Source: Escherichia coli (lineage in GTDB: Bacteria; Pseudomonadota; Gammaproteobacteria; Enterobacterales; Enterobacteriaceae). From it: 64,000 nucleotides of DNA. Below are positions 1-9,356 of this stretch, in pieces (the stretch's first letter is position 1; each line of letters starts with the position of its first letter). Under the pieces are notes generated by a model. It did no database searches and was not told the origin of the DNA. It was given only the letters and a program-made list of their open reading frames with translations. A program made the translations under genes and the position numbers. The DNA lies in assembly GCF_003790525.1 (NCBI RefSeq), contig NZ_CP033635.1; one strand, given 5' to 3'.

Positions 1-1338
1 GGTCTGCCCGCACTGTGGGGGATGGTGAGTGGTGCGGTGGGCGCACTTGGCGGGGCGCTGGGTTTTCTGTTAAGTCCGGTGGGCCTTGTGGTGGCGACAC
101 TGGTCGGTGCGGCAGTGCTTATCTGGCGGCACTGGGACCAGCTGAAGGCTGTCGTGGGCGGGTTCTTGTCCGGCCTGTGGCAGGGGCTTACGCCACTGCG
201 CGAGGCTGTGGCACCACTGGGACCGCTGTTTGAGTATGTCGGGCAGACAATCGGGCGTGTGTGGCAGTGGTTCGTGGATTTGTTCGCGCCGGTAAGCACA
301 ACAAAGGATGAGCTGGACAAGTGCACGGAAGCCGGGCGTACGTTCGGGCAGAAGGTAGGGGAGTTTATCAGCAATCTGGTGACCGGTCCGGTTACGCTGC
401 TGATTGACTCATTAACCCGGGTGCTGGAAAAACTCGGGCTGATTCCGTCGGCGGTTGAGCGCGCCCGGAAAAAGGCGGAAGAACTAAAACAGAAGGAGTT
501 GCTGAACGAGAAAGCTGCCATGCTTCTGGCGGATGTTAACGTCATTAATCCGCCGAAAAAGGACGAGGATAAAAAAGACGGCGAAAAACCCAAAGGGGGG
601 CAACCACCCCTGACGGGGGAGAATACCGGCACTATGCGCCGCCTGAACAAAATCGTCGATAACACCGGTGGTCTGCTGGATGAGGCGAAACAGGCGAAAA
701 AACGCGCTGGTCCCGGCGATATTATCTTTAAAAACCTGCCGGAAGCGCTGGCCGTTCGTGGTGAGTGGAAGGAGGAACGCTTTAACCGAGCAGCTTCCCT
801 GTTACCGGGTAGTGTCAGTGAGCCACCTGTCAGACTGCCGCAGGTGCCGTCGGTCAGTGTGCCTTCGTTGCCACCGCTGCCAGCGCCACCGCCTGTCAGT
901 GTTTCGCCGCTGATATCCACCACGGCGAACGTGTCGCCGGTCGTGAAGCCGGTGGTGTCCGTGAATAATGTGCCGGTTATTCCTCCGGTCGTCCGTCCGG
1001 TACTGTCCGGTAATATTACGCCAGTGGTTCCGCCGGTGATCAAACCGGTTATGACTCACGATGTCATGCCGACGTTCTCCCCGCTAATGACACCAGTGAT
1101 GGCGGCAACATCCCGTCCGGTGGTTGAGGCTGTGCGCCAGCCCATATCCCCCGCATCGCCCCGACCGCGCCAGAGTGAGCCGGCACCATGGGGATTAACT
1201 GGCGAACTGCATATTCACCTGCATGATGTTCACACGCAAAACCCGCGCGAACTGGCAAAAATGGTGGGTGATGCCGTCCGTGCGGAAATGGAACGCCGTA
1301 TCCGCCAGACAGTCGGTAGTTTCCGTGACAGAGATTAG
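1..1338 (+). CDS. phage tail tape measure protein, C-terminal part (P2 gpT-like); 5' end outside window
   Basis: Frame is open from base 1; Pro/Val-rich C-terminal region; lies immediately upstream of a gpU-like gene as in P2 T-U; family recognised from memory, no search. Confidence 0.7.
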   Translation, partial: GLPALWGMVSGAVGALGGALGFLLSPVGLVVATLVGAAVLIWRHWDQLKAVVGGFLSGLWQGLTPLREAVAPLGPLFEYVGQTIGRVWQWFVDLFAPVSTTKDELDKCTEAGRTFGQKVGEFISNLVTGPVTLLIDSLTRVLEKLGLIPSAVERARKKAEELKQKELLNEKAAMLLADVNVINPPKKDEDKKDGEKPKGGQPPLTGENTGTMRRLNKIVDNTGGLLDEAKQAKKRAGPGDIIFKNLPEALAVRGEWKEERFNRAASLLPGSVSEPPVRLPQVPSVSVPSLPPLPAPPPVSVSPLISTTANVSPVVKPVVSVNNVPVIPPVVRPVLSGNITPVVPPVIKPVMTHDVMPTFSPLMTPVMAATSRPVVEAVRQPISPASPRPRQSEPAPWGLTGELHIHLHDVHTQNPRELAKMVGDAVRAEMERRIRQTVGSFRDRD

Positions 1339-1349
1339 GAGTACCTCTC

Positions 1350-1838
1350 ATGATGATGATTTACGGCATGTTTGTTTTTGAGTTGCGTACGCTGCCTCAT
1401 CAACAACTGCAACATAATAAAACCTGGCGCCACGTTAAAAATGAACGCATCAATCGTTCGGCCAGCTGGCAGTATATCGGGGCGGGTGACGACCAGATCA
1501 CGTTGTCCGGTGTGCTTTATCCCGAAATTACCGGCGGTGAGGTTTCCCTCAGCCTTTTAACGACGCAGGCTTACACTGGTCGCCCATGGCCGCTGATTGA
1601 CGGTGTGGGGCAGATATACGGCATGTATGTGATAACGGCTGTCCGCACAACGCGAAGCGAACTTGACCGCCACGGTAAGGCCAAAAAAATTGAGTTCACT
1701 GTCAGTCTGGAACGCTGTGATGAGGATTTGCGGGAGAGTATGGCCTCGTCGCCGGTGTCTGATATGCTTTCGGGAATGAAAGGGAAGTTAAGTTCGGTCT
1801 GGAATACCACAGTAAGCGGCGTAAATGATCTGATGTGA
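1350..1838 (+). CDS. phage tail protein U (P2 gpU-like)
   Basis: 162-aa ORF; N-terminal MMMIYGMFVFELRT... and WRHVKNERINRSASWQYIGAGDDQITLSG resemble P2 GpU family; directly follows the tape-measure gene. Confidence 0.75.
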   Translation: MMMIYGMFVFELRTLPHQQLQHNKTWRHVKNERINRSASWQYIGAGDDQITLSGVLYPEITGGEVSLSLLTTQAYTGRPWPLIDGVGQIYGMYVITAVRTTRSELDRHGKAKKIEFTVSLERCDEDLRESMASSPVSDMLSGMKGKLSSVWNTTVSGVNDLM

Positions 1839-1845
1839 AGGTAAT

Positions 1846-1865
1846 GTGCCGCATTCTTGCGGCAC
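1846..1865. terminator. 8-bp stem hairpin (GTGCCGCA-TTCT-TGCGGCAC) between convergent gpU and tail fibre assembly genes
   Basis: Perfect inverted repeat read directly in the 70-bp gap between the two convergent stop codons; no strong U-tract. Confidence 0.4.
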
Positions 1866-1908
1866 CTGCATGATGAATTATTTATGAATGCCCGTTCCTT
1901 TTCCCCGC

Positions 1909-2520
1909 TCATTCCATTTCTGGTGGTGTTTCCGGCCAGCTTATTTCAGGCTCCGTGCTGATATCCAGTGCGTTCAGCTCGTCGATATAATCCAGCACGG
2001 CATTCAGTTTTGCCGTTTCTTCTGGTGTCAGACTGCGACCTGCCCGCAACTTAAGGTTGATGAGGTCGATGGACTTCATCGCCTGATCCACCCGTTCCTT
2101 GCGTTGCTGTCTGGCAACCTCCAGCTCTTCGGCTTGCTGCCGTTCTGTATCGGTTACCCACGCCTCACCGTTCCAGGTATCCCATGGTGTGGCAGGCTGT
2201 TTTGTCGTTGTCCCTTCCGGGTAGTCACCTGGTTGGGTAATCTGGACCGGATTACCGTTCTCTGTGCTGTATACCGTCTCTCCACGATGATCGGGGACAT
2301 ACTCCCACCCGTCCAGCGTGGACGTCCGGCAAATCACGTAACCCGGCATTGCCTCTGGCGGGGCATCGGCGCATGAATGTGCCGGGGTACCCACCCCCAG
2401 GGCGAGATACTCCACAGAGGATGAGGTGTATTCCCGGGTTTCCTCATCATAGTGATATACAGTGATATCGCCTGCGAAAGTGGCGATACCGTTTTCATCC
2501 AGAACTGCAGTGTTACTCAT
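1909..2520 (-). CDS. phage tail fibre assembly protein (P2 gpG-like)
   Basis: 203-aa ORF immediately downstream of the tail fibre gene, start overlapping its stop; typical size and position. Confidence 0.75.
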   Translation of the reverse strand: MSNTAVLDENGIATFAGDITVYHYDEETREYTSSSVEYLALGVGTPAHSCADAPPEAMPGYVICRTSTLDGWEYVPDHRGETVYSTENGNPVQITQPGDYPEGTTTKQPATPWDTWNGEAWVTDTERQQAEELEVARQQRKERVDQAMKSIDLINLKLRAGRSLTPEETAKLNAVLDYIDELNALDISTEPEISWPETPPEME

Positions 2521-4754
2521 TAAACTGCCCTCACAATATAATTAAAAGCGATATTGCGCGGTCTGATCGCTATCCATCTGTCTTTTTCATTACTCACCAG
2601 CTTACCGGCTCTGGCTATTGCCCATCTGTCAACTGGTTTTGTGCCGTACAGGATGCCGTTACCGGTTCTGGGTTGATCAGGGGTTATGTTTATGATGTCG
2701 TTATCATGTGATGCAAATGAAATCCCTGCCTGAATATCTGCACCTCCCGCTACGCCGTGGTACGCCTGTATGGCGGTACAAATATATGTTGCTTCCTGTG
2801 TGGATAACAATAAGCGTCCCCTGTCAATCATTCGCAGGTCATCCCATCCACGAATAAATTCCCCGCGCAAATCTGGTAGCCTGAGGTCAGGGTAGGCCAC
2901 CGCCAGTTTTGGGTATTTTGTACGCGTGAATGCGGCACCGTTGCACTGTAACCACCCCTCAGGTGGTCTTGACGAAGGCCACGGAACGGGTACGCCAACT
3001 GGCAGCGTCGAGCCTTCTCCTAAACCAAAGTAATCAAGAATATCTTTTATGCTTTGTTTACCCATGATGACGCGGGCAACAGACGAAAAAACAGGGGCGT
3101 CTGTGATCTGAGCCCAGCGATGAGTGTGGGCTGCCGAGGCTTTGCTGTTGGCAAGGTCATACGCAGCTTTAACAGCTTTTGGTGTGGCCGCCAGCGTTTC
3201 GGAATTGCTGTTTGTGGCGCTGCTTAGCTGTACGATGCCTTTGCGTCCGGTGGTTGCATCCTGTCCTGTATACTTGCTCGTCAGCATATCGTGTAAGGCT
3301 TTAACCGCTTTGGGGGTGGCGGCCTCAGTCTCTGACTCACTGTTTGTGGCACTGCTCAGCTGTACGGTGCCTTTTGCCGTCAGCGAGGCTGATGGCACAC
3401 CTGTTATCTGATTCCACGGGTGGGTGTGGCTGGCGGGTGCTTTACCGGCTGCAAGGTCATATGCAGCCTTGACGGCTCTTGGTGTGGCCGCCAGCGTTTC
3501 GGAATTGCTGTTTGTATCGCTGCTCAGCTGTACGATGCCTTTGCGTCCAGTTGTTGCATCTGTGTTTGTCACCTCCACCCACTCTGACCATGGGCCGTTA
3601 CCGTTAAAGTTTCCGGTAACTGTCCTGATAAATTTTCGTGGCGGATCCCAGCTCGTGTATTCATGCTGGCAGAATCCCCATGCACCAACACGGATGCGTA
3701 ACTCTCCTGCCTTCTCTACAGGATAGTTTCTGTCTGTTCTCGCACCTGAGTCACTCTGCTGGTAATAATCTCCCGCGTCTTCCTTACGCCCCAGAGTGTT
3801 CAGGTCTGTTTCCCCCAGGGATGTTGTTGGCTTCACGAACGCCATGCTCAGTGCATCACTTACTGCCTTCGGTGTGGCCGCCAGTGTTTCGGAATTGCTG
3901 TTTGTGGCGCTGCTCAGCTGTACGATGCCTTTGCGTCCGGTGGTTGCATCCTGTCCTGTATACTTGCTCGTCACCATATCGTGTAAGGCTTTAACCGCTT
4001 TGGGGGTGGCCGCCTCAGTCTCTGACTCACTGTTTGTGGCACTGCTCAGCTGTACGGTGCCTTTTGCCGTCAGCGAGGCTGATGGCACACCAGTTATCTG
4101 ATTCCACGGGTGGGTGTGGCTGGCGGCTGCTTTACCGGCTGCAAGGTCATATGCAGCCTTGACGGCCTTCGGTGTGGCGGCCAGTGTTTCAGAGGTGCTG
4201 TTTGTGGCGCTGCTCAGTTGGGTGAATCCTTTTTCTGTCAGTGTCGCGTCAGGGTGGTTACGGGAACGTGCGTGTTCCGCCATTTTCTCATCAATGTAGT
4301 CCGTGGTCGGCAGAATTGTTGTTGTGTCCATGACCAGTTCCACCACGGCGTCGGAGGTGACGGTGATTACTGCACGGAATATCTGCGCCCGCCCTGAACC
4401 TTCCTCTCTGGTGGGCTTGTAACTTTCAGCGGTATTTCCTACTGCAATCATTGTACCTGTATCATCAAACACACCAATTTCACGCACCCAGAATCCGCCG
4501 GTTTCAGGAGGAATGACCAGTTCGGCGATGAGGCGGTTCGGGTTCTCCGGGTCGGTGAAGACGCGGTTGACAGACTGGCGCCAAACCTCATTGTAAAGCG
4601 ATGTCTGGTTTTTCTGCGGCTGACGAAGCTCTCCATTGCCGTCCCCTACAGCCATGTGCGTAAGGCGTACAGGTCTACCGCCAGGCGCCGTTGTTGCGGC
4701 CAGCTTTGCCAGCCCGATGTCGGTGATAAGGGTTCTGAATTTTCTCGTGCTCAT
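2520..4754 (-). CDS. phage tail fibre protein (P2 gpH-like) with multiple internal repeats
   Basis: 744-aa ORF; motif TGRKGIVQLSSATNS(N/E)SET(L/E)AATPKAVK repeated at least 6 times (phage tail fibre repeat); position between baseplate I and assembly gene. Confidence 0.85.
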   Translation of the reverse strand: MSTRKFRTLITDIGLAKLAATTAPGGRPVRLTHMAVGDGNGELRQPQKNQTSLYNEVWRQSVNRVFTDPENPNRLIAELVIPPETGGFWVREIGVFDDTGTMIAVGNTAESYKPTREEGSGRAQIFRAVITVTSDAVVELVMDTTTILPTTDYIDEKMAEHARSRNHPDATLTEKGFTQLSSATNSTSETLAATPKAVKAAYDLAAGKAAASHTHPWNQITGVPSASLTAKGTVQLSSATNSESETEAATPKAVKALHDMVTSKYTGQDATTGRKGIVQLSSATNSNSETLAATPKAVSDALSMAFVKPTTSLGETDLNTLGRKEDAGDYYQQSDSGARTDRNYPVEKAGELRIRVGAWGFCQHEYTSWDPPRKFIRTVTGNFNGNGPWSEWVEVTNTDATTGRKGIVQLSSDTNSNSETLAATPRAVKAAYDLAAGKAPASHTHPWNQITGVPSASLTAKGTVQLSSATNSESETEAATPKAVKALHDMLTSKYTGQDATTGRKGIVQLSSATNSNSETLAATPKAVKAAYDLANSKASAAHTHRWAQITDAPVFSSVARVIMGKQSIKDILDYFGLGEGSTLPVGVPVPWPSSRPPEGWLQCNGAAFTRTKYPKLAVAYPDLRLPDLRGEFIRGWDDLRMIDRGRLLLSTQEATYICTAIQAYHGVAGGADIQAGISFASHDNDIINITPDQPRTGNGILYGTKPVDRWAIARAGKLVSNEKDRWIAIRPRNIAFNYIVRAV
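3181..3480. repeat. ~300-bp direct repeat unit, copy 1, inside tail fibre gene
   Basis: Near-identical to 3871-4170 (690 bp downstream) by direct comparison of the sequence lines; partial further copies begin at 3481 and 4171. Confidence 0.8.
3871..4170. repeat. ~300-bp direct repeat unit, copy 2, inside tail fibre gene
   Basis: Near-identical to 3181-3480; only a few substitutions seen. Confidence 0.8.
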
Positions 4755-4757
4755 GGT

Positions 4758-5321
4758 TCAGTCTTCCGGGTAAATGGTGATGATGTCGCCGTCGTAACCT
4801 GCGGCAGCGGCGTAAATGGCACCGTGTATTTCCTGGATGATACTAAGCCCCACGAGGTGGCGGCTGACGGGGCGCGCATCGGCAATCAGACGCTCCATTT
4901 CTTCATGCAGCTCTTCACTTACTCCGGTTTCAAGTGTGCCAATCTCAATGGTGAAGGTCCCGGGCGAGCCGTCAAACTCCCACCATTCTGATACACGGAT
5001 GAGGTAGCCCAGTGGTTCAACGATGCGGCGGAGTGCACTGATGGTCCCTTTGTGGCGATGTATCATCCATGCGTCCCGAATCACCTGTCGCCTGGTCTCT
5101 TCCGGCCAGTTGCGGTCCCAGCTGTCAACGGAACATGCCCATGCAAGGTAGGGCAGGAGGTGAGCAGGGCAGCGGTCCGGCGACCACAGGGTGTCGGCGT
5201 CCACCGGTATGGTACTGATGCGTACTCCTGTCGCCTCTGTGGCGCGCATGAATGGCCCTGCGGACGGTGGAAGCAGTGATGTACTGTGCTGTGCGCTGTC
5301 TGTTTTTTTCCTGTCACTCAT
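4758..5321 (-). CDS. phage baseplate/tail protein I (P2 gpI-like)
   Basis: ORF 4758-5375; start placed at internal Met (MSDRKK...) next to the J stop; position between J and tail fibre as in P2. Confidence 0.7.
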   Translation of the reverse strand: MSDRKKTDSAQHSTSLLPPSAGPFMRATEATGVRISTIPVDADTLWSPDRCPAHLLPYLAWACSVDSWDRNWPEETRRQVIRDAWMIHRHKGTISALRRIVEPLGYLIRVSEWWEFDGSPGTFTIEIGTLETGVSEELHEEMERLIADARPVSRHLVGLSIIQEIHGAIYAAAAGYDGDIITIYPED

Positions 5322-6210
5322 TGCGTCCTCCTTCGCTGATGCTGAATGTGGTACATCTGGCTGCCTGAGTGTCACTGATGGTGATGTTCTGCGTGGGTTT
5401 TATGACCTCAACGCGCTGGACACCGTGAACATGCAGCGCTGCAGTGATGGCTGACAGGGCCACGTCCTGACCGATACGGCCCTGGTCTGCCAGCCATGCA
5501 CGGAAAGCGGCGTCAGCGGCCGCAAGCATGGGTTCAGACTCCGGCCCTGGATAAAAATACAGCTTCGCTTCCATTACCCAGTTCACGATGGTAGCACTCT
5601 GCACAGTCAGGCGGTCGGCAACCGGGCGCACGTTCTCGGCATTCAGGGCGGTGCGCACCGTGTTCAGTAACGCCTCACCGGCGGTGCCGTCACCGTCTGC
5701 TGACAGGATGGAGACGGTGACTGTGGCCGGTGACGGGCTGATGGCGCGCGCATCACGGACAAGACCGCTTGCGCTCCGGGCAAAATACTCATACGCGCCG
5801 GACGGTCCGGCCACACTCAGGCCGTCCCAGGCTGACTGGGCACGCAGACGCAGCGATGTGTCGCTTTCCATCACTGCTTCCGTGGTATCAGTGGCCGGAT
5901 GAATGACCAGGCGGCGGGTGTTGTTGTTGGCGGCCAGATTGTCCAGGTCACTGCCCCGGCTGTGGCTGAGCATGCAGGCGCGGGCGGCTTCATTGATGCG
6001 CTGGCGAAGCAGCATTTCACGAAAGGCCATGGCCTGGGAAATGATGTTCAATGGCTCGGATTCCAGAGTAAGGGCACGGGTGACGGCGGCGCGGTATTCT
6101 TCCGGGAAGGAGCTCACCATCATGGTTTTAATGTCTGCCAGGATGGACTCAAAATCCGGCTGCGCGATGATGGCCGGTTCCGGTAACTGTGACAGGTCAA
6201 CGGAAGGCAT
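5314..6210 (-). CDS. phage baseplate assembly protein J (P2 gpJ-like)
   Basis: 298-aa ORF (P2 J is about 300 aa); position between W and I. Confidence 0.8.
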   Translation of the reverse strand: MPSVDLSQLPEPAIIAQPDFESILADIKTMMVSSFPEEYRAAVTRALTLESEPLNIISQAMAFREMLLRQRINEAARACMLSHSRGSDLDNLAANNNTRRLVIHPATDTTEAVMESDTSLRLRAQSAWDGLSVAGPSGAYEYFARSASGLVRDARAISPSPATVTVSILSADGDGTAGEALLNTVRTALNAENVRPVADRLTVQSATIVNWVMEAKLYFYPGPESEPMLAAADAAFRAWLADQGRIGQDVALSAITAALHVHGVQRVEVIKPTQNITISDTQAARCTTFSISEGGRNE

Positions 6211-6213
6211 GAT

Positions 6214-6564
6214 TTACTCCCTCAGGGTGATACTGAATGTGATGTTCTGCATGGTTTCGGTGATGATGCCGGATAACGTCACCACGGCGCGTCCGCCAGC
6301 CCGCCAGTTCACATCGACGTTCTGCAGTGCTATACGGGGTTCATGGCGCGCCAGCGCAGTCACCGTGGCGCTCATGCACTGTAAACGCGTGGTGTCGTTC
6401 ATGGGCTCGTCGATGAGGTCCGGTAACAGGCTGCCGTATTCGCGGCGCATCACCCGGCTGCCTGGCGGTGTGGTCAGGATATCCCGCACGCTGTTTTTCA
6501 GGTGTTCGCTGTCGCTCAGCGTGCCGGTTCCCTGCGGGTTCATCCCCCTGTAAACAGCGGTCAT
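6214..6564 (-). CDS. phage baseplate protein W (gpW/gp25-like)
   Basis: ORF 6214-6729; start placed at internal Met (MTAVYRGM...) giving ~116 aa, overlapping the V stop; P2 synteny. Confidence 0.75.
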   Translation of the reverse strand: MTAVYRGMNPQGTGTLSDSEHLKNSVRDILTTPPGSRVMRREYGSLLPDLIDEPMNDTTRLQCMSATVTALARHEPRIALQNVDVNWRAGGRAVVTLSGIITETMQNITFSITLRE

Positions 6565-7142
6565 TGCGGGCCTCCCGTGGTGCCCGGGCCCGTCCTGACG
6601 CCACCGTGGGTGTGCGTATGAACGGTGATACCGTTGGATGTCAGGCTGCCGCCGCTGTGGGATATGCTGCCGCGCATCTCGCCGCCGTTCTGCACCTCCA
6701 GGGTGGCGGTGATAAGTTTGCGGGTACACACCACCTCCGACGTGTCCAGGGTGATGCGCGTGTCGGCCTGAATGCTGGCTGTTTTAATCCCCTTAACCTC
6801 CAGTGCACCGGCGTCTGCATCGTAGCGGAATACCGCACCGTCCGGTGCTGTCATGATGATTTCCTTCAGTGTGCTGCCCGGTGCCGGGATATCATCGCTC
6901 CAGAGGCTGCCGATGATTATCGCGGTTTCGGGATTACCACCGATACAGACGAACGCCACCTGTTCACCGGTGGCTGGCGGCACCCAGACACTGAACGCGC
7001 CCGCCCGCGCGGTGCTCCAGCGAAGCCAGCCTGTCTCCAGTCCGCCACTGCGCACCCGGACCTCCCAGGTCTGCGGGTTCACGTCGAAAATCACGCCGGT
7101 TCTGATGATGTTGCTGATAAGGCGCATTAATTCCGCGTTCAT
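6561..7142 (-). CDS. phage baseplate assembly protein V (spike, P2 gpV-like)
   Basis: 193-aa ORF; Gly-rich C-terminus; between S and W. Confidence 0.75.
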   Translation of the reverse strand: MNAELMRLISNIIRTGVIFDVNPQTWEVRVRSGGLETGWLRWSTARAGAFSVWVPPATGEQVAFVCIGGNPETAIIIGSLWSDDIPAPGSTLKEIIMTAPDGAVFRYDADAGALEVKGIKTASIQADTRITLDTSEVVCTRKLITATLEVQNGGEMRGSISHSGGSLTSNGITVHTHTHGGVRTGPGTTGGPQ

Positions 7143-7795
7143 GCCACAGCCCTCGCGATATTGTCCATAATGATACGCTGAATAAGTCGTTCATCTGCCG
7201 GTGTTATTCCAAGAAGTTCACGGGCCGGATAATCCGTATACATCCCTGCGGCCACCCGGTCGCGCTCCCCGAACTGGTGAACGCGGGCAATGCGTGCCGC
7301 CACGCCGCTGTAGCCCACCGTCACGCCTGATGCGTCCGCCTTCACTTTCAGATAACGGGCCGTGCGCAGCTTCGCAAACATCGGCACCGTTTTTGTGGTG
7401 TCACGGTTGATGCGGCGTGTCCTGATTTCAAGGAAACGGAGGATATCACTCCGGTAAAAGGTACGTATGCCGCTCCGGTCTTCATCCCAGCCGGTGATGG
7501 TCTGGCCGTATTTTCCTGAACCGTGATGCCAGTTTTTCAGGGTGCGGTTCTGGTTTTGCCAGATAAAGCTGATGCGCTCCTGAAGGCGTGATATACGGCG
7601 TTTACGGCGTGTCCACACCGAACCGTCCGGCGCTTTCTGGGCGCGCATCCGGCTCTGGTTCACGCGCCGCAGCTCCTTACCCACATGCGCGGCAATGCGC
7701 TTCACTGCCTGCGGGCTGGTTGCCAGCCGGATATTGACAAACATGTTACTCATTCCTTCAGCGGGAACGAGGTTACGGTATCTCAGTTTCCCCAT
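7139..7795 (-). CDS. phage virion morphogenesis / tail completion protein (P2 gpS-like); start uncertain
   Basis: ORF 218 aa, longer than P2 S; internal Met candidates near 7753; position between R and V. Confidence 0.65.
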   Translation of the reverse strand: MGKLRYRNLVPAEGMSNMFVNIRLATSPQAVKRIAAHVGKELRRVNQSRMRAQKAPDGSVWTRRKRRISRLQERISFIWQNQNRTLKNWHHGSGKYGQTITGWDEDRSGIRTFYRSDILRFLEIRTRRINRDTTKTVPMFAKLRTARYLKVKADASGVTVGYSGVAARIARVHQFGERDRVAAGMYTDYPARELLGITPADERLIQRIIMDNIARAVA

Positions 7796-7810
7796 AACAT
7801 TCTCCGCGTG

Positions 7811-8275
7811 TTATCCGGTGACAATGTTCCACGTCACATCCTCCAGAATGTGTGACCAGTCGCCGTCCTGCGGGATGCGTGATTTCGGCTCCGGTAGATG
7901 TTCTGTCATGAGGGTGCCGTCATCCCTGCGGGTGACGCGCACGCGTTCACGTAACGGCAGCTCAAACAGCACGTCCGCGCTGTCGTCGTCGTTAATGGCC
8001 GCCGTGAACTGAATATCGTTGTTGCGCTCAGGATTAAGCAGCAACTGCGGCTGGTTCTCTGCCAGCCAGACAATCAGTGGAAGCGTCAGGTTGTCCAGAT
8101 CGCCCGTGTAGTCCATCACGAACATCACCAGCCGGTAGTTGTACACGAACGTCGGCGTCTCGCCGGTGGTCTCTATCCCGCCACGTTCAATGAACACGGT
8201 GAACTTTTCCGGGTTGGCCCTGCACCACCGGCACGCTGTACTCATGTGTGTGCTCAGGGATTTACTTTTCAGCAT
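7811..8275 (-). CDS. phage tail completion protein (P2 gpR-like)
   Basis: ORF 7811-8359; start at internal Met gives ~154 aa, matching gpR size; position after the lysis cassette. Confidence 0.7.
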   Translation of the reverse strand: MLKSKSLSTHMSTACRWCRANPEKFTVFIERGGIETTGETPTFVYNYRLVMFVMDYTGDLDNLTLPLIVWLAENQPQLLLNPERNNDIQFTAAINDDDSADVLFELPLRERVRVTRRDDGTLMTEHLPEPKSRIPQDGDWSHILEDVTWNIVTG

Positions 8276-8576
8276 GCGCCTCTCCGTTCTGTCGGTTGAG
8301 TCTCCGGCGCTCCATCGCCTCAATGGCCCGTTTGTCTGCGTTGCAGGTTTCCAGTGCATCCAGGAGGCTGTCGCTCCATATCCCGATATTTCCCCAGGTG
8401 GGGTGTTCAGGGAAGGGCGGGGGCCGTGTTCCCGTCGTCAGTCCCGCCGGAATGAACCGGAAGGAGGGCGCGGGCAGTGGCGCGTTCCGTGTGTTCGCGC
8501 AGCCGGTCAGTAAAACGGTGGTCAGGAAGAGTGCCGGCGCACTCATCCGTCGCAGCAATTTCGCGAAGCTGTTCAC
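8262..8576 (-). CDS. o-spanin lipoprotein (Rz1/LysC-like)
   Basis: Signal peptide with lipobox LLTGC; Pro-rich; embedded out of frame in the 3' part of the i-spanin gene. Confidence 0.65.
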   Translation of the reverse strand: MNSFAKLLRRMSAPALFLTTVLLTGCANTRNAPLPAPSFRFIPAGLTTGTRPPPFPEHPTWGNIGIWSDSLLDALETCNADKRAIEAMERRRLNRQNGEAHAEK

Positions 8577-8814
8577 GTCTGACTTCTCCTTCCTGTGCCC
8601 TTTTCTGTCGCTGCGTCATCACCTCATGCAGTACGGCGGAGGCATCGCTGATAACGGCGGAGGACTCACGCAGCGCCCGGCTGTATTCGCCCAGCTGCTG
8701 CTCTGCGGCGTCACGTGCCTCACCGGCACGCCCCAGCCGGTATGACTGCCACATGGCCGCCGCCGTCAGGGTGGTCACCATGAGGGCAACAATCACGGCG
8801 TAAACCGGTCTCAT
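8407..8814 (-). CDS. i-spanin (Rz/LysB-like)
   Basis: N-terminal TM segment (AVIVALMVTTLTAAAMW) followed by charged helical region; immediately downstream of endolysin; overlaps the o-spanin gene. Confidence 0.65.
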   Translation of the reverse strand: MRPVYAVIVALMVTTLTAAAMWQSYRLGRAGEARDAAEQQLGEYSRALRESSAVISDASAVLHEVMTQRQKRAQEGEVRREQLREIAATDECAGTLPDHRFTDRLREHTERATARALLPVHSGGTDDGNTAPALP

Positions 8815-9356
8815 GTGCTGCCTCCCGTGTCGCGAAGACACCACTGTCTGAACTCCTCCCGGCGGTTAACCAGCCCCTGTGAGCGGCGTCCGCCACTGTT
8901 GACAAAATCGGTCAGTCTCCCGCACATCGCCACCCAGCGGTGCGCCTGTGCGTGCTTCCAGATGGTGGTGCGCTGCCGGTTGCCGCTCCTGTCCCGGTAC
9001 CACATCAGGCCGGTACAGCCGACGTTGAACGCCGCGTCGGTCATCGCCTCAAAGGCGGACTGGGGCATGGCGGCACCGCTGAAGTTCTGGTTGATACAGT
9101 TTTCCGCGTGCCGCAGGTCATTCACCCAGCGGCGGGCCACCTCCTTTTCTCCGTAAACCCGGTTCTCCACGCCCCCTGTTGAACCACATCCCACGGTCAT
9201 TACTCCTGCAATATCACGGTACGGTGTCGCCCGGCACTCTTCCCGGGTGGCGATTTTTATCTGTGCTTCCCGTGAGGTTCTCAGTTCACCGGGTGCCATG
9301 GAGACGCCCAGCGCCACAATGGCCGCCACCGCATAACGTTTTACCGGCAGTTTCAC
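8811..9356 (-). CDS. phage endolysin (lysozyme-type), possibly with N-terminal signal-anchor-release segment
   Basis: 181-aa ORF between holin and spanins; Gly/Ala-rich hydrophobic N-terminus (AVAAIVALGVSMAPG). Confidence 0.75.
   Translation of the reverse strand: MKLPVKRYAVAAIVALGVSMAPGELRTSREAQIKIATREECRATPYRDIAGVMTVGCGSTGGVENRVYGEKEVARRWVNDLRHAENCINQNFSGAAMPQSAFEAMTDAAFNVGCTGLMWYRDRSGNRQRTTIWKHAQAHRWVAMCGRLTDFVNSGGRRSQGLVNRREEFRQWCLRDTGGST

What the first reader, a model, noticed from the sequence alone, without database searches (positions are those of the whole stretch)
3181..4170. Near-identical ~300-bp direct repeats inside the tail fibre gene
Two ~300-bp units (3181-3480 and 3871-4170) are almost identical at the DNA level, with further partial copies at 3481 and 4171. 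They encode the reiterated GIVQLSSATNS..AATPKAV fibre motif. Repeats this similar are substrates for RecA-mediated deletion or expansion that could change fibre length, and they can cause assembly collapse. The small plus-strand ORFs in the ORF track here are antisense echoes of the same repeats.
Basis: seen in the sequence. Interest (0 to 1): 0.4.

Follow-up and report, generated by a model that had tools for sequence, protein, structure and literature searches.

The report
Recombining repeat modules in tail fibre
Two nearly identical ~350-bp stretches inside the tail-fibre gene of a P2-type E. coli prophage are in-frame copies of a shaft building block on either side of a knob domain; related prophages show the copies exchanging sequence and changing in number, which is the ordinary, known way phage fibres evolve.

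Summary
Window 3178-3527 and 3868-4217 are direct repeats 690 bp apart, 333/350 identical (95%).

Both copies lie in the 744-aa tail fibre gene H (2520-4754, minus strand) of a P2-family E. coli prophage. The protein is modular: N-terminal anchor, A (56 aa), B (44 aa), K (130 aa), A, B, T, then a collar/tip domain. A, B, K and T each start with a Pfam Phage_fiber_2 motif. K also carries a pyocin-type knob. Each DNA repeat covers most of one A module, all of B and the start of the next motif.

The recombination reading is supported by comparison with relatives:
- The two copies co-vary within alleles, including at synonymous sites, which indicates gene conversion.
- Ten module orders (626-856 aa) occur in otherwise near-identical fibres, four of them (including the window's) seen in complete genomes.
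- Three exactly predicted 690-bp in-frame deletion proteins (514 aa) exist on 12 public contigs. All 12 are draft assemblies, so assembly collapse is not excluded.
- None of 6 tested 974-aa duplication proteins was found.
- All 22 complete genomes with this allele have the full 2235 bp, so it is not hypervariable.

DGR, invertible-segment and simple-repeat switches were tested and rejected. This is a known kind of feature and of low interest.

The parts
2520..4754 (-). Tail fibre gene (P2 gpH-type), 744 aa
   Evidence: ORF; Pfam PF12571 + 6x PF03406 + PF07484; PHROG tail-fibre families; RefSeq WP_103856004.1 'tail fiber protein' in the identical TUM1886 prophage
4230..4754 (-). N-terminal baseplate-attachment domain, aa 1-175
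   Evidence: Phage_tail_fib PF12571, aa 4-151, E 1.2e-49
3868..4217 (-). DNA repeat copy 1 (gene-proximal; coding nt 538-887, aa 180-296). It covers most of module A1, all of B1 and the first 21 aa of the K motif.
   Evidence: 333/350 identical to 3178-3527; the 17 differences are listed
3178..3527 (-). DNA repeat copy 2 (gene-distal; coding nt 1228-1577, aa 410-526). It covers most of module A2, all of B2 and the first 21 aa of the T motif.
4062..4229 (-). Module A1 (aa 176-231): Phage_fiber_2 motif plus an HxH-containing linker (SHTHPW)
   Evidence: motif parse; Pfam hit at aa 171-210
3930..4061 (-). Module B1 (aa 232-275): Phage_fiber_2 motif plus short linker
   Evidence: 98% DNA identity to B2
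3540..3929 (-). Module K (aa 276-405): Phage_fiber_2 motif followed by a pyocin-type knob domain (aa ~310-400, window ~3555-3827). This is the unique spacer between the two DNA repeats.
   Evidence: no Pfam family; 264 representative homologues; profile hit to R2/R1 pyocin fibre knobs 6CT8/6CL6/6CL5, E 4.5e-6 to 5e-4; AF2 pLDDT 88.7; Foldseek top hit 6CL6, prob 1.0, TMq 0.58
3372..3539 (-). Module A2 (aa 406-461)
   Evidence: 100% DNA identity to the second, pre-knob A module of alleles L002-L004
3240..3371 (-). Module B2 (aa 462-505)
3072..3239 (-). Terminal module T (aa 506-561): last Phage_fiber_2 motif plus HxH linker. It resembles the single motif in phage Mu fibre gpS.
   Evidence: Pfam hit at aa 501-542; PDB 5YVQ/8JU3, E 1.5e-8
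2520..3071 (-). C-terminal collar and tip (aa 562-744), the presumed receptor-binding end
   Evidence: Collar PF07484, aa 587-634; match to the T4 gp37 tip 2XGF, E 3.6e-12
1909..2520 (-). Tail fibre assembly chaperone (gpG-type), immediately downstream
   Evidence: phrog_105, E 2.3e-87; RefSeq annotation
3124..4397 (+). Antisense shadow ORFs (3124-3411, 3424-3726, 3638-3994, 3796-4101, 4110-4397), not genes
   Evidence: ORF ends and starts are offset by exactly 690; 80/82 aa identical; they hit only unknown-function PHROGs

Best explanation
The two near-identical stretches are in-frame copies of an 'A-B' shaft cassette (100 aa, two Phage_fiber_2 units) in the tail fibre gene of a P2-family E. 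coli prophage. They sit on either side of a 130-aa module that carries a pyocin-type knob. The protein reads: N-anchor, A, B, K(knob), A, B, T, collar/tip.

All modules are multiples of 3 nt (168, 132, 390) and start with the same ~23-aa motif. Homologous exchange between any two of them therefore stays in frame.

Shown here:
- The two copies exchange sequence non-reciprocally (gene conversion). This keeps them 95-100% alike and makes them co-vary within alleles.
- Otherwise near-identical fibres differ by whole modules.

Inferred:
- The exchanges are made by host homologous recombination (RecA-dependent, or RecA-independent slipped misalignment), within one prophage or between co-resident prophages.
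- Adding or removing modules changes shaft length, the number of HxH metal sites and whether the knob is present, and so changes fibre reach or secondary binding. Receptor specificity stays with the C-terminal tip.

This is slow evolutionary tinkering, not a fast programmed switch.
For: Anatomy.

Gene conversion at protein level. Among 73 alleles of 744 aa, changes at the five sites where the copies differ go to the residue of the other copy: A210P in most alleles, V261L and L491V (opposite directions) on many backgrounds, and K196R, T187N, A183D and P440A. P0097 has all five copy-1 sites converted. That is 102 paralogue-directed against 24 other changes inside the repeats, or 34 against 24 when the inherited A210P is left out by my tally.

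Gene conversion at DNA level. Alleles L014-L023 have copy 1 carrying copy-2 states at sites 628-781, including synonymous sites 663 and 744. This gives 251 nt of exact identity between copies, against 80 nt in the window. L015, L017, L018 and L019 carry state 1 at site 663 in both copies, which is concerted evolution.

Module polymorphism. There are nine module orders among the top 120 homologues with the same N- and C-termini, plus a knob-less A-B-A-A-T allele. Complete genomes carry four of the ten orders: the window's own A-B-K-A-B-T, A-B-A-A-T, A-A-B-K-A-T and A-A-B-K-A-A-T. Length steps are 12, 44 and 56 aa, the module sizes or their difference. The window's post-knob A module is 100% identical in DNA to the pre-knob second A module of L002-L004.

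Deletion products. Three of 9 distinct predicted 690-bp in-frame deletion chimeras exist exactly (P0121, P0272, P0273) on 12 contigs. Their junctions fall in at least 3 intervals, and they sit on several flanking haplotypes shared with full-length contigs.

Knob.

Literature. Buth et al. 2018 (PMC6116203) state that repeating structure lets fibre length be adjusted by motif duplication, that HxH motifs bind iron in trimeric fibres, and that knobs bind saccharide. [quoted passage not shown]
Against: All 12 deletion-bearing contigs come from draft assemblies: MEGAHIT-named (k141) metagenome contigs, metagenome scaffolds, a Logan contig and fragmented NCBI drafts. Common parental alleles have 251 nt of exact identity between copies, which assemblers can collapse. 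That several junctions and haplotypes occur within one project fits artefact as well as biology.

None of the 6 distinct 974-aa duplication proteins looked up was found.

All 22 complete genomes with this allele carry the full 2235 bp, so any length change is rare.

The role of RecA, the physical length change and any phenotype are untested. Module shuffling could come mainly from exchange with other prophages' fibre genes rather than from within the gene: 587 genomes carry ~81%-identical Phage_fiber_2 DNA.
Confidence: 0.8

Rival explanations
1. A static structural duplication. The A-B cassette was duplicated once around the knob and is kept by selection on fibre structure. The DNA similarity only reflects how recent the duplication is, and the copies do not interact.
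For: All 22 complete genomes with this allele have the same 2235-bp gene. The 744-aa form dominates (at least 69 clusters, one of them on 444 contigs). In the window allele, 9 of the 17 differences between copies are synonymous, as simple divergence would give.
Against: The copies co-vary within alleles, including at synonymous sites, and conversions run in both directions (V261L and L491V) on several backgrounds. Module order differs among near-identical alleles.
Confidence: 0.1
2. The variation comes mainly from exchange between prophages. Modules are swapped between fibre genes of co-resident or superinfecting phages that share Phage_fiber_2 DNA, not by exchange within the gene.
For: 587 of 5426 complete E. 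coli genomes carry ~81%-identical matches to the repeat region (query 473-1652) in other tail fibre genes. Some genomes appear to hold both a 744-aa and an 812-aa allele: P0012, P0017 and P0011 have longest-contig lengths equal to records that also carry the 744-aa gene or protein. The window's A2 module is identical to the A module at a different position in L002-L004.
Against: Homogenisation of the two copies within a single allele (a 251-nt exact run, and the same state at site 663 in both copies) needs exchange between the two copies of the same gene lineage. This rival adds to the best explanation rather than replacing it.
Confidence: 0.35
3. The 514-aa 'deletion alleles' are purely assembly collapse of the repeat in short-read data and say nothing about biology.
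For: All 12 contigs are draft assemblies, 5 of them from one MEGAHIT-named series. Exact identity between copies reaches 251 nt in common alleles, longer than the k = 141 indicated by the k141 contig names. Junctions and flanking haplotypes differ from sample to sample, and the deletion contig L010 shares its haplotype with the full-length contig L015 from the same project. No deletion allele occurs in complete genomes.
Against: The same project naming series (VALL22-1 scaffolds) also yields the full-length gene (L015), as do many other short-read metagenome assemblies. From my understanding of how Logan contigs are built (short k-mers, no repeat resolution), such a contig should break at repeat branches rather than bridge them, so a Logan contig spanning the whole gene (L013) hints at a real single-copy template. 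That step is inference from my own knowledge of the method. Some junction intervals are only 30-59 nt of identity.
Confidence: 0.5
4. A programmed diversification system acts here: a diversity-generating retroelement, an invertible fibre segment, or slipped-strand phase variation.
For: Tail fibre genes are the classic targets of such systems.
Against: Differences between the copies are not adenine-specific. No reverse transcriptase or invertase is annotated anywhere in the prophage. There is only one weak inverted repeat (27 nt, 70% complementary, arms 2.3 kb apart). Tandem Repeats Finder finds no tandem repeat array of any period, and the repeat finder reports none either (it leaves out runs of 1-3-bp units). 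The repeats lie in the shaft, not the receptor-binding tip.
Confidence: 0.01

Closest known systems
Phage P2 tail fibre gpH and the mosaic tail fibres of P2, Mu, P1 and lambda Stf (Sandmeier 1994, PMID 8065255; Pfam Phage_fiber_2, PF03406)
   Same: It has the same N-terminal PF12571 anchor, sits in the same I-H-G gene neighbourhood (tail protein I, fibre, assembly chaperone) of a prophage annotated with P2-family genes, and needs a gpG-type chaperone. It has the same repeated ~40-aa motif, which is also present once in Mu gpS (PDB 5YVQ) and in lambda Stf (PMC3368898). The theme is the same: motifs are reused and rearranged by recombination.
   Different: This allele family has six motifs in two near-identical 350-bp cassettes around a knob. 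No isolated phage in the phage collection carries this gene; only two partial ~82% hits were found. The concerted evolution of the two cassettes is documented here from population data and is not taken from the literature.
R1/R2 pyocin receptor-binding fibres of Pseudomonas aeruginosa (PDB 6CL5, 6CL6, 6CT8; Buth et al. 2018, PMC6116203)
   Same: Both are fibres of P2-like contractile tails, with rod or shaft repeats, knob domains, HxH motifs and evolution by motif or domain duplication. The K module matches the pyocin knob by profile (E 4.5e-6) and by fold (Foldseek prob 1.0, TMq 0.58).
   Different: There is one knob in mid-shaft rather than two tandem knobs. The tip is a collar/gp37-like domain, not a lectin-like beta-sandwich. 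Sequence identity to the pyocin knob is only ~21%. Metal binding by the HxH motifs is inferred here, not shown.
Concerted evolution of intragenic repeats by gene conversion and unequal crossing-over (a general phenomenon, e.g. repeat-containing bacterial surface proteins)
   Same: The copies are more alike within an allele than orthologous copies are between alleles. Conversion runs in both directions. Copy number varies in whole-module steps, in frame.
   Different: The repeats here are interspersed (separated by 340 bp of unique knob sequence), not tandem, and there are only two long copies. The observed stability is high (22 of 22 complete genomes are identical in length).

Membership tests
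P2-type tail fibre (gpH-like) | N-terminal Phage_tail_fib (PF12571) baseplate-attachment domain | tested here: met
   aa 4-151, E 1.2e-49
P2-type tail fibre (gpH-like) | Gene lies between tail protein I and a tail fibre assembly chaperone in a P2-family morphogenesis cluster | tested here: met
   RefSeq annotation of the identical prophage; PHROG 48 upstream and PHROG 105 downstream; Pfam Tail_P2_I and Caudo_TAP in related contigs
P2-type tail fibre (gpH-like) | Forms a trimeric fibre on the virion that binds the host surface | not testable with these tools
   Would need virion proteomics, EM or adsorption assays
Phage_fiber_2 (PF03406) repeat proteins | Multiple significant matches to the ~42-aa repeat profile | tested here: met
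   Six hits, E 1.6e-19 to 1.6e-14
Pyocin-type knob domain | Sequence-profile and fold similarity to Knob1/Knob2 of R-type pyocin fibres | tested here: met
   hmmsearch of alignment A1 against the PDB: 6CT8 E 4.5e-6, 6CL6 7.2e-5, 6CL5 5.1e-4. AF2 model pLDDT 88.7. Foldseek: 6CL6 prob 1.00, TMq 0.58, rmsd 3.6. The model is a monomer; the trimer was not modelled.
Intragenic repeats under concerted evolution (gene conversion) | Paralogous copies co-vary within alleles; variants at sites that differ between copies switch to the other copy's state, including at synonymous sites | tested here: met
Repeat-mediated deletion or expansion locus | Products with exactly one repeat-plus-spacer unit lost or gained, with junctions inside the repeat | tested here: inconclusive
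   Three predicted deletion proteins were found on 12 contigs, all of them draft assemblies. None of 6 tested duplication proteins was found, and none occurs in complete genomes.
Diversity-generating retroelement target (VR/TR pair) | Adenine-specific mismatches between repeats and a nearby reverse transcriptase | tested here: not met
   The mismatches are mixed substitutions. No RT is annotated in the prophage.
Invertible tail-fibre segment (Mu G / P1 C / e14 P type) | Inverted repeats flanking alternative fibre 3' ends, plus a Gin/Cin/Pin invertase | tested here: not met
   The repeats are direct. There is only one weak 27-nt inverted pair. No invertase is annotated.
Simple-sequence contingency locus | Short tandem repeat tract subject to slipped-strand mispairing | tested here: not met
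   Tandem Repeats Finder returns 0 arrays in 1-9000

The most novel reading that the evidence does not exclude
The A-B/knob cassette arrangement could work as a moderately frequent recombinational switch. During prophage induction or replication, a sizeable minority of genomes would lose the 690-bp unit (or gain one), so that a single lysogen releases a mix of long knob-bearing and short knob-less fibres. That would be a bet-hedging host-range or adsorption device. The recurrent 514-aa alleles in metagenomes would then be real, independently arising products.
Probability: 0.08. Interest if true: 0.5.

Novelty: already known. Interest (0 to 1): 0.2.

Why it matters
This has modest, mainly practical importance.

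(1) For annotation and assembly. This fibre gene contains up to 251 nt of exact internal identity, so short-read assemblies can report a 514-aa knob-less fibre that may not exist. Fibre length or domain content taken from draft assemblies of this prophage family should not be trusted without long reads.

(2) For phage biology and engineering. The allele series is a natural set of shaft-length and knob-presence variants: ten module orders from 626 to 856 aa on the same anchor and tip, plus the possible 514-aa form. It could be used to test how shaft length, HxH sites and a mid-shaft knob affect adsorption in P2-like phages and tailocins.

(3) It is a clean small example of concerted evolution inside a viral structural gene.

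None of this changes current understanding. Repeated motifs and recombination in tail fibre genes have been described since the 1990s.

Tried and rejected
- Tandem Repeats Finder: no arrays, because the repeats are interspersed.
- Phage collection search: no isolated phage carries this gene; only two partial ~82% hits.
- DGR: rejected.
- Invertible segment or shufflon: rejected.
- Antisense ORFs as real genes: rejected. They are 690-bp echoes and hit only unknown-function PHROGs.
- Direct phmmer of the knob region against the PDB: no significant hit. The hit appeared only with a profile.
- Pfam on the knob: no family.
- Exact look-up of 974-aa duplication products: 6 distinct sequences, none found.
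- Six of the 9 distinct deletion chimeras looked up were also absent. Most were built on the window's minority A210 state or on crossovers in the short upstream intervals.
- Flank-SNP analysis, to decide whether the deletion alleles form one inherited lineage: they do not. They sit on several haplotypes. This fits recurrence but cannot separate biology from mis-assembly.
- Two literature searches failed on a term-length rule.
- The P88/pro147 paper (PMC5285337) places host-range determinants in the C-terminal region and says nothing about shaft repeats.
Full report
OBSERVATION. The repeat is real. The repeat finder reports a 300-nt direct repeat at 3163-3462 and 3853-4152, 96% identical and 690 bp apart. 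It also reports a four-copy family of 160-nt units with spacings 300, 390 and 300. The chance probability of 333/350 matches is about 1e-174. The 'partial copies at 3481 and 4171' are the next motif units, seen at offset 300. Tandem Repeats Finder finds nothing because the copies are interspersed. The plus-strand ORFs are shadows of the repeats: 3124-3411 and 3796-4101 end exactly 690 bp apart and are 80/82 identical.

WHAT IT IS. The repeats lie in a 744-aa ORF on the minus strand (2520-4754). Pfam finds an N-terminal Phage_tail_fib domain (aa 4-151, E 1e-49), six Phage_fiber_2 repeats (starting at aa 171, 227, 271, 401, 457 and 501) and a Collar domain (aa 587-634). PHROGs gives tail-fibre families, with a tail fibre assembly protein immediately downstream. 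The window is E. coli. The gene is 100% identical to one in strain TUM1886, where it sits in a complete P2-family prophage with the usual capsid, terminase, baseplate, tail and ogr genes. The C-terminus resembles the T4 gp37 tip (2XGF, E 4e-12), and the last motif resembles the one in Mu fibre gpS (5YVQ).

MODULES. Parsing on the motif G-x-[VTI]-Q-L-S-S-...-A-A-T-P-[KR]-A-V gives three module sizes:
- A, 56 aa: motif plus a linker containing S-H-T-H-P-W.
- B, 44 aa.
- K, 130 aa.
The window protein reads N-anchor, A, B, K, A, B, T, collar/tip. Since A+B is 300 nt and A+B+K is 690 nt, this explains every spacing seen. Each DNA repeat covers aa 180-296 or aa 410-526: most of an A module, all of B and the first 21 aa of the next motif.

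THE SPACER IS A KNOB. The K region has no Pfam family and no direct PDB sequence hit. It has 264 representative homologues at E <= 1e-3, some with many copies per protein. A 44-sequence profile hits the knob domains of the R2 and R1 pyocin fibres (6CT8 E 4.5e-6, 6CL6, 6CL5). An AlphaFold model is confident (pLDDT 88.7), and its best structural match is the R2 pyocin fibre (6CL6, Foldseek probability 1.0, TMq 0.58). Buth et al. 2018 (PMC6116203) describe such knobs as trimeric beta-sheet domains implicated in saccharide binding. They also describe HxH motifs as iron sites in trimeric fibres, and repeating shaft elements as a way to adjust fibre length by duplication.

DO THE REPEATS RECOMBINE? 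Three lines of comparative evidence bear on this.

(1) Gene conversion. Among 73 public 744-aa alleles, changes at the five positions where the copies differ go overwhelmingly to the residue of the other copy. These are A210P (most alleles; the window's A210 is the minority state), V261L and L491V (opposite directions, on several backgrounds), K196R, T187N, A183D and P440A. One allele (P0097) has all five copy-1 positions converted. The count is 102 paralogue-directed against 24 other changes within the repeats. At DNA level, alleles L014-L023 carry copy-2 states in copy 1 at sites 628, 663, 744 and 781, two of which are synonymous. This gives 251 nt of exact identity between copies, against 80 nt in the window. 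Four alleles carry the alternative state at site 663 in both copies. That is concerted evolution.

(2) Module polymorphism. Fibres with the same anchor and tip show these module orders:
- A-B-K-A-B-T (744 aa)
- A-B-K-A-A-T and A-A-B-K-A-T (756 aa)
- A-A-B-K-A-B-T and A-B-K-A-B-A-T (800 aa)
- A-A-B-K-A-A-T, A-A-B-A-K-A-T and A-B-K-A-A-A-T (812 aa)
- A-B-K-A-B-A-A-T (856 aa)
- a knob-less A-B-A-A-T (626 aa)
Four of these orders, including the window's own, were seen in complete genomes. The window's post-knob A module is 100% identical in DNA to the pre-knob second A module of L002-L004, so modules move between positions.

(3) Predicted deletion products. I built the in-frame proteins expected from a crossover between the two repeats and looked them up by exact sequence. 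Three exist, all 514 aa: P0121 (equal to the common allele P0030 minus 230 aa), P0272 and P0273. Together they are on 12 contigs. Their DNA junctions fall in at least three intervals, and they sit on several flanking haplotypes, some shared with full-length contigs. None of the six 974-aa duplication products tested was found.

CAVEAT. All 12 deletion contigs are draft assemblies: MEGAHIT-named (k141) contigs, metagenome scaffolds, fragmented NCBI drafts and a Logan contig. With up to 251 nt of exact identity between copies, collapse is a serious alternative, and the diversity of junctions within one project fits it. Against collapse, the same naming series (VALL22-1 scaffolds) also gave the full-length gene (L015). 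In addition, a Logan contig should not bridge a branching repeat, though that point rests on my own understanding of the method. I rate real against artefact at about even. All 22 complete genomes with this allele are full length, so the locus is stable on that scale.

REJECTED ALTERNATIVES.
- DGR: the mismatches are not adenine-specific and there is no reverse transcriptase.
- Invertible segment: there are no flanking inverted repeats and no invertase.
- Simple-repeat phase variation: no tandem array.
- Coding antisense ORFs: they are echoes only.

MECHANISM. Shown: in-frame modular repeats, sequence exchange between the two copies, and whole-module variation among relatives. Inferred: the exchanges are made by host homologous recombination or slipped misalignment, possibly also between co-resident prophages, since 587 genomes carry ~81%-identical repeat DNA in other fibre genes. 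Also inferred: module changes alter shaft length, the number of HxH sites and knob presence, while receptor specificity stays in the C-terminal tip, as found for P2-like phage P88 (PMC5285337).

COMPARISON AND NOVELTY. This is a P2 gpH-type fibre with Phage_fiber_2 repeats and a pyocin-type knob. Motif reuse and rearrangement in tail fibres is long known (Sandmeier 1994, PMID 8065255, cited in PMC8986868; Buth 2018). The gene is already annotated in RefSeq. The feature is ordinary, and its main practical value is as a warning about draft-assembly fibre lengths. Interest is 0.2.

Noticed in passing
window 2520-4754 (protein clusters P0030, P0032, P0040, P0057, P0059, P0069, P0073, P0076, P0077): Several public records (NCBI, UniRef) name this tail fibre protein 'short-chain fatty acid transporter'. 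Given the Pfam and PHROG results, this is an evident propagated misannotation.
   Followed up: no
window 3124-3411, 3424-3726 and 3796-4101 (+): The antisense shadow ORFs of the Phage_fiber_2 repeats match PHROG families of unknown function (phrog_26766, E 1.7e-15; phrog_24241, E 1.7e-10). These families are probably built from spurious antisense gene calls in other phage genomes.
   Followed up: partly
window 1-1338 (+), and L006 24533-26728: The window starts inside the tail tape measure gene. In the near-identical TUM1886 prophage (99.95% over the 12 kb compared), RefSeq marks this gene as a pseudogene 'missing C-terminus'. Related contigs L016 and L020 have split or shortened ORFs there instead of the intact 1103-aa gene of L009 and L014. 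The prophage may be tail-defective in some strains.
   Followed up: no
E. coli genomes NZ_CP135671 (TUM9803), NZ_CP127316 (Ch1) and a 4,762,195-bp genome: Some genomes seem to hold both a 744-aa and an 812-aa allele of this fibre. Proteins P0012, P0017 and P0011 have longest-contig lengths equal to records that also carry the window-type gene, and those records have up to 14 matching places. Such strains would carry two related P2-like prophages whose fibre genes could recombine.
   Followed up: no
window 3540-3929 (K module): The pyocin-type knob domain has no Pfam family, although it has 264 representative clusters at E <= 1e-3 and occurs up to 13 times in one protein (P0154).
   Followed up: partly
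window 4127 (coding nt 628, aa 210): The window's allele has Ala at aa 210 and only 80 nt of exact identity between copies. It is the minority and least homogenised form. Most public alleles have Pro210 in both copies, and some have 251 nt of exact identity.
   Followed up: yes
L005 (NZ_CP158311, strain CS5L) 3001-5706: A related prophage with near-identical baseplate genes carries a 901-aa fibre with about ten A/B-type modules, no knob and a different C-terminal tip. This shows that tip replacement occurs as well as shaft-module variation.
   Followed up: no
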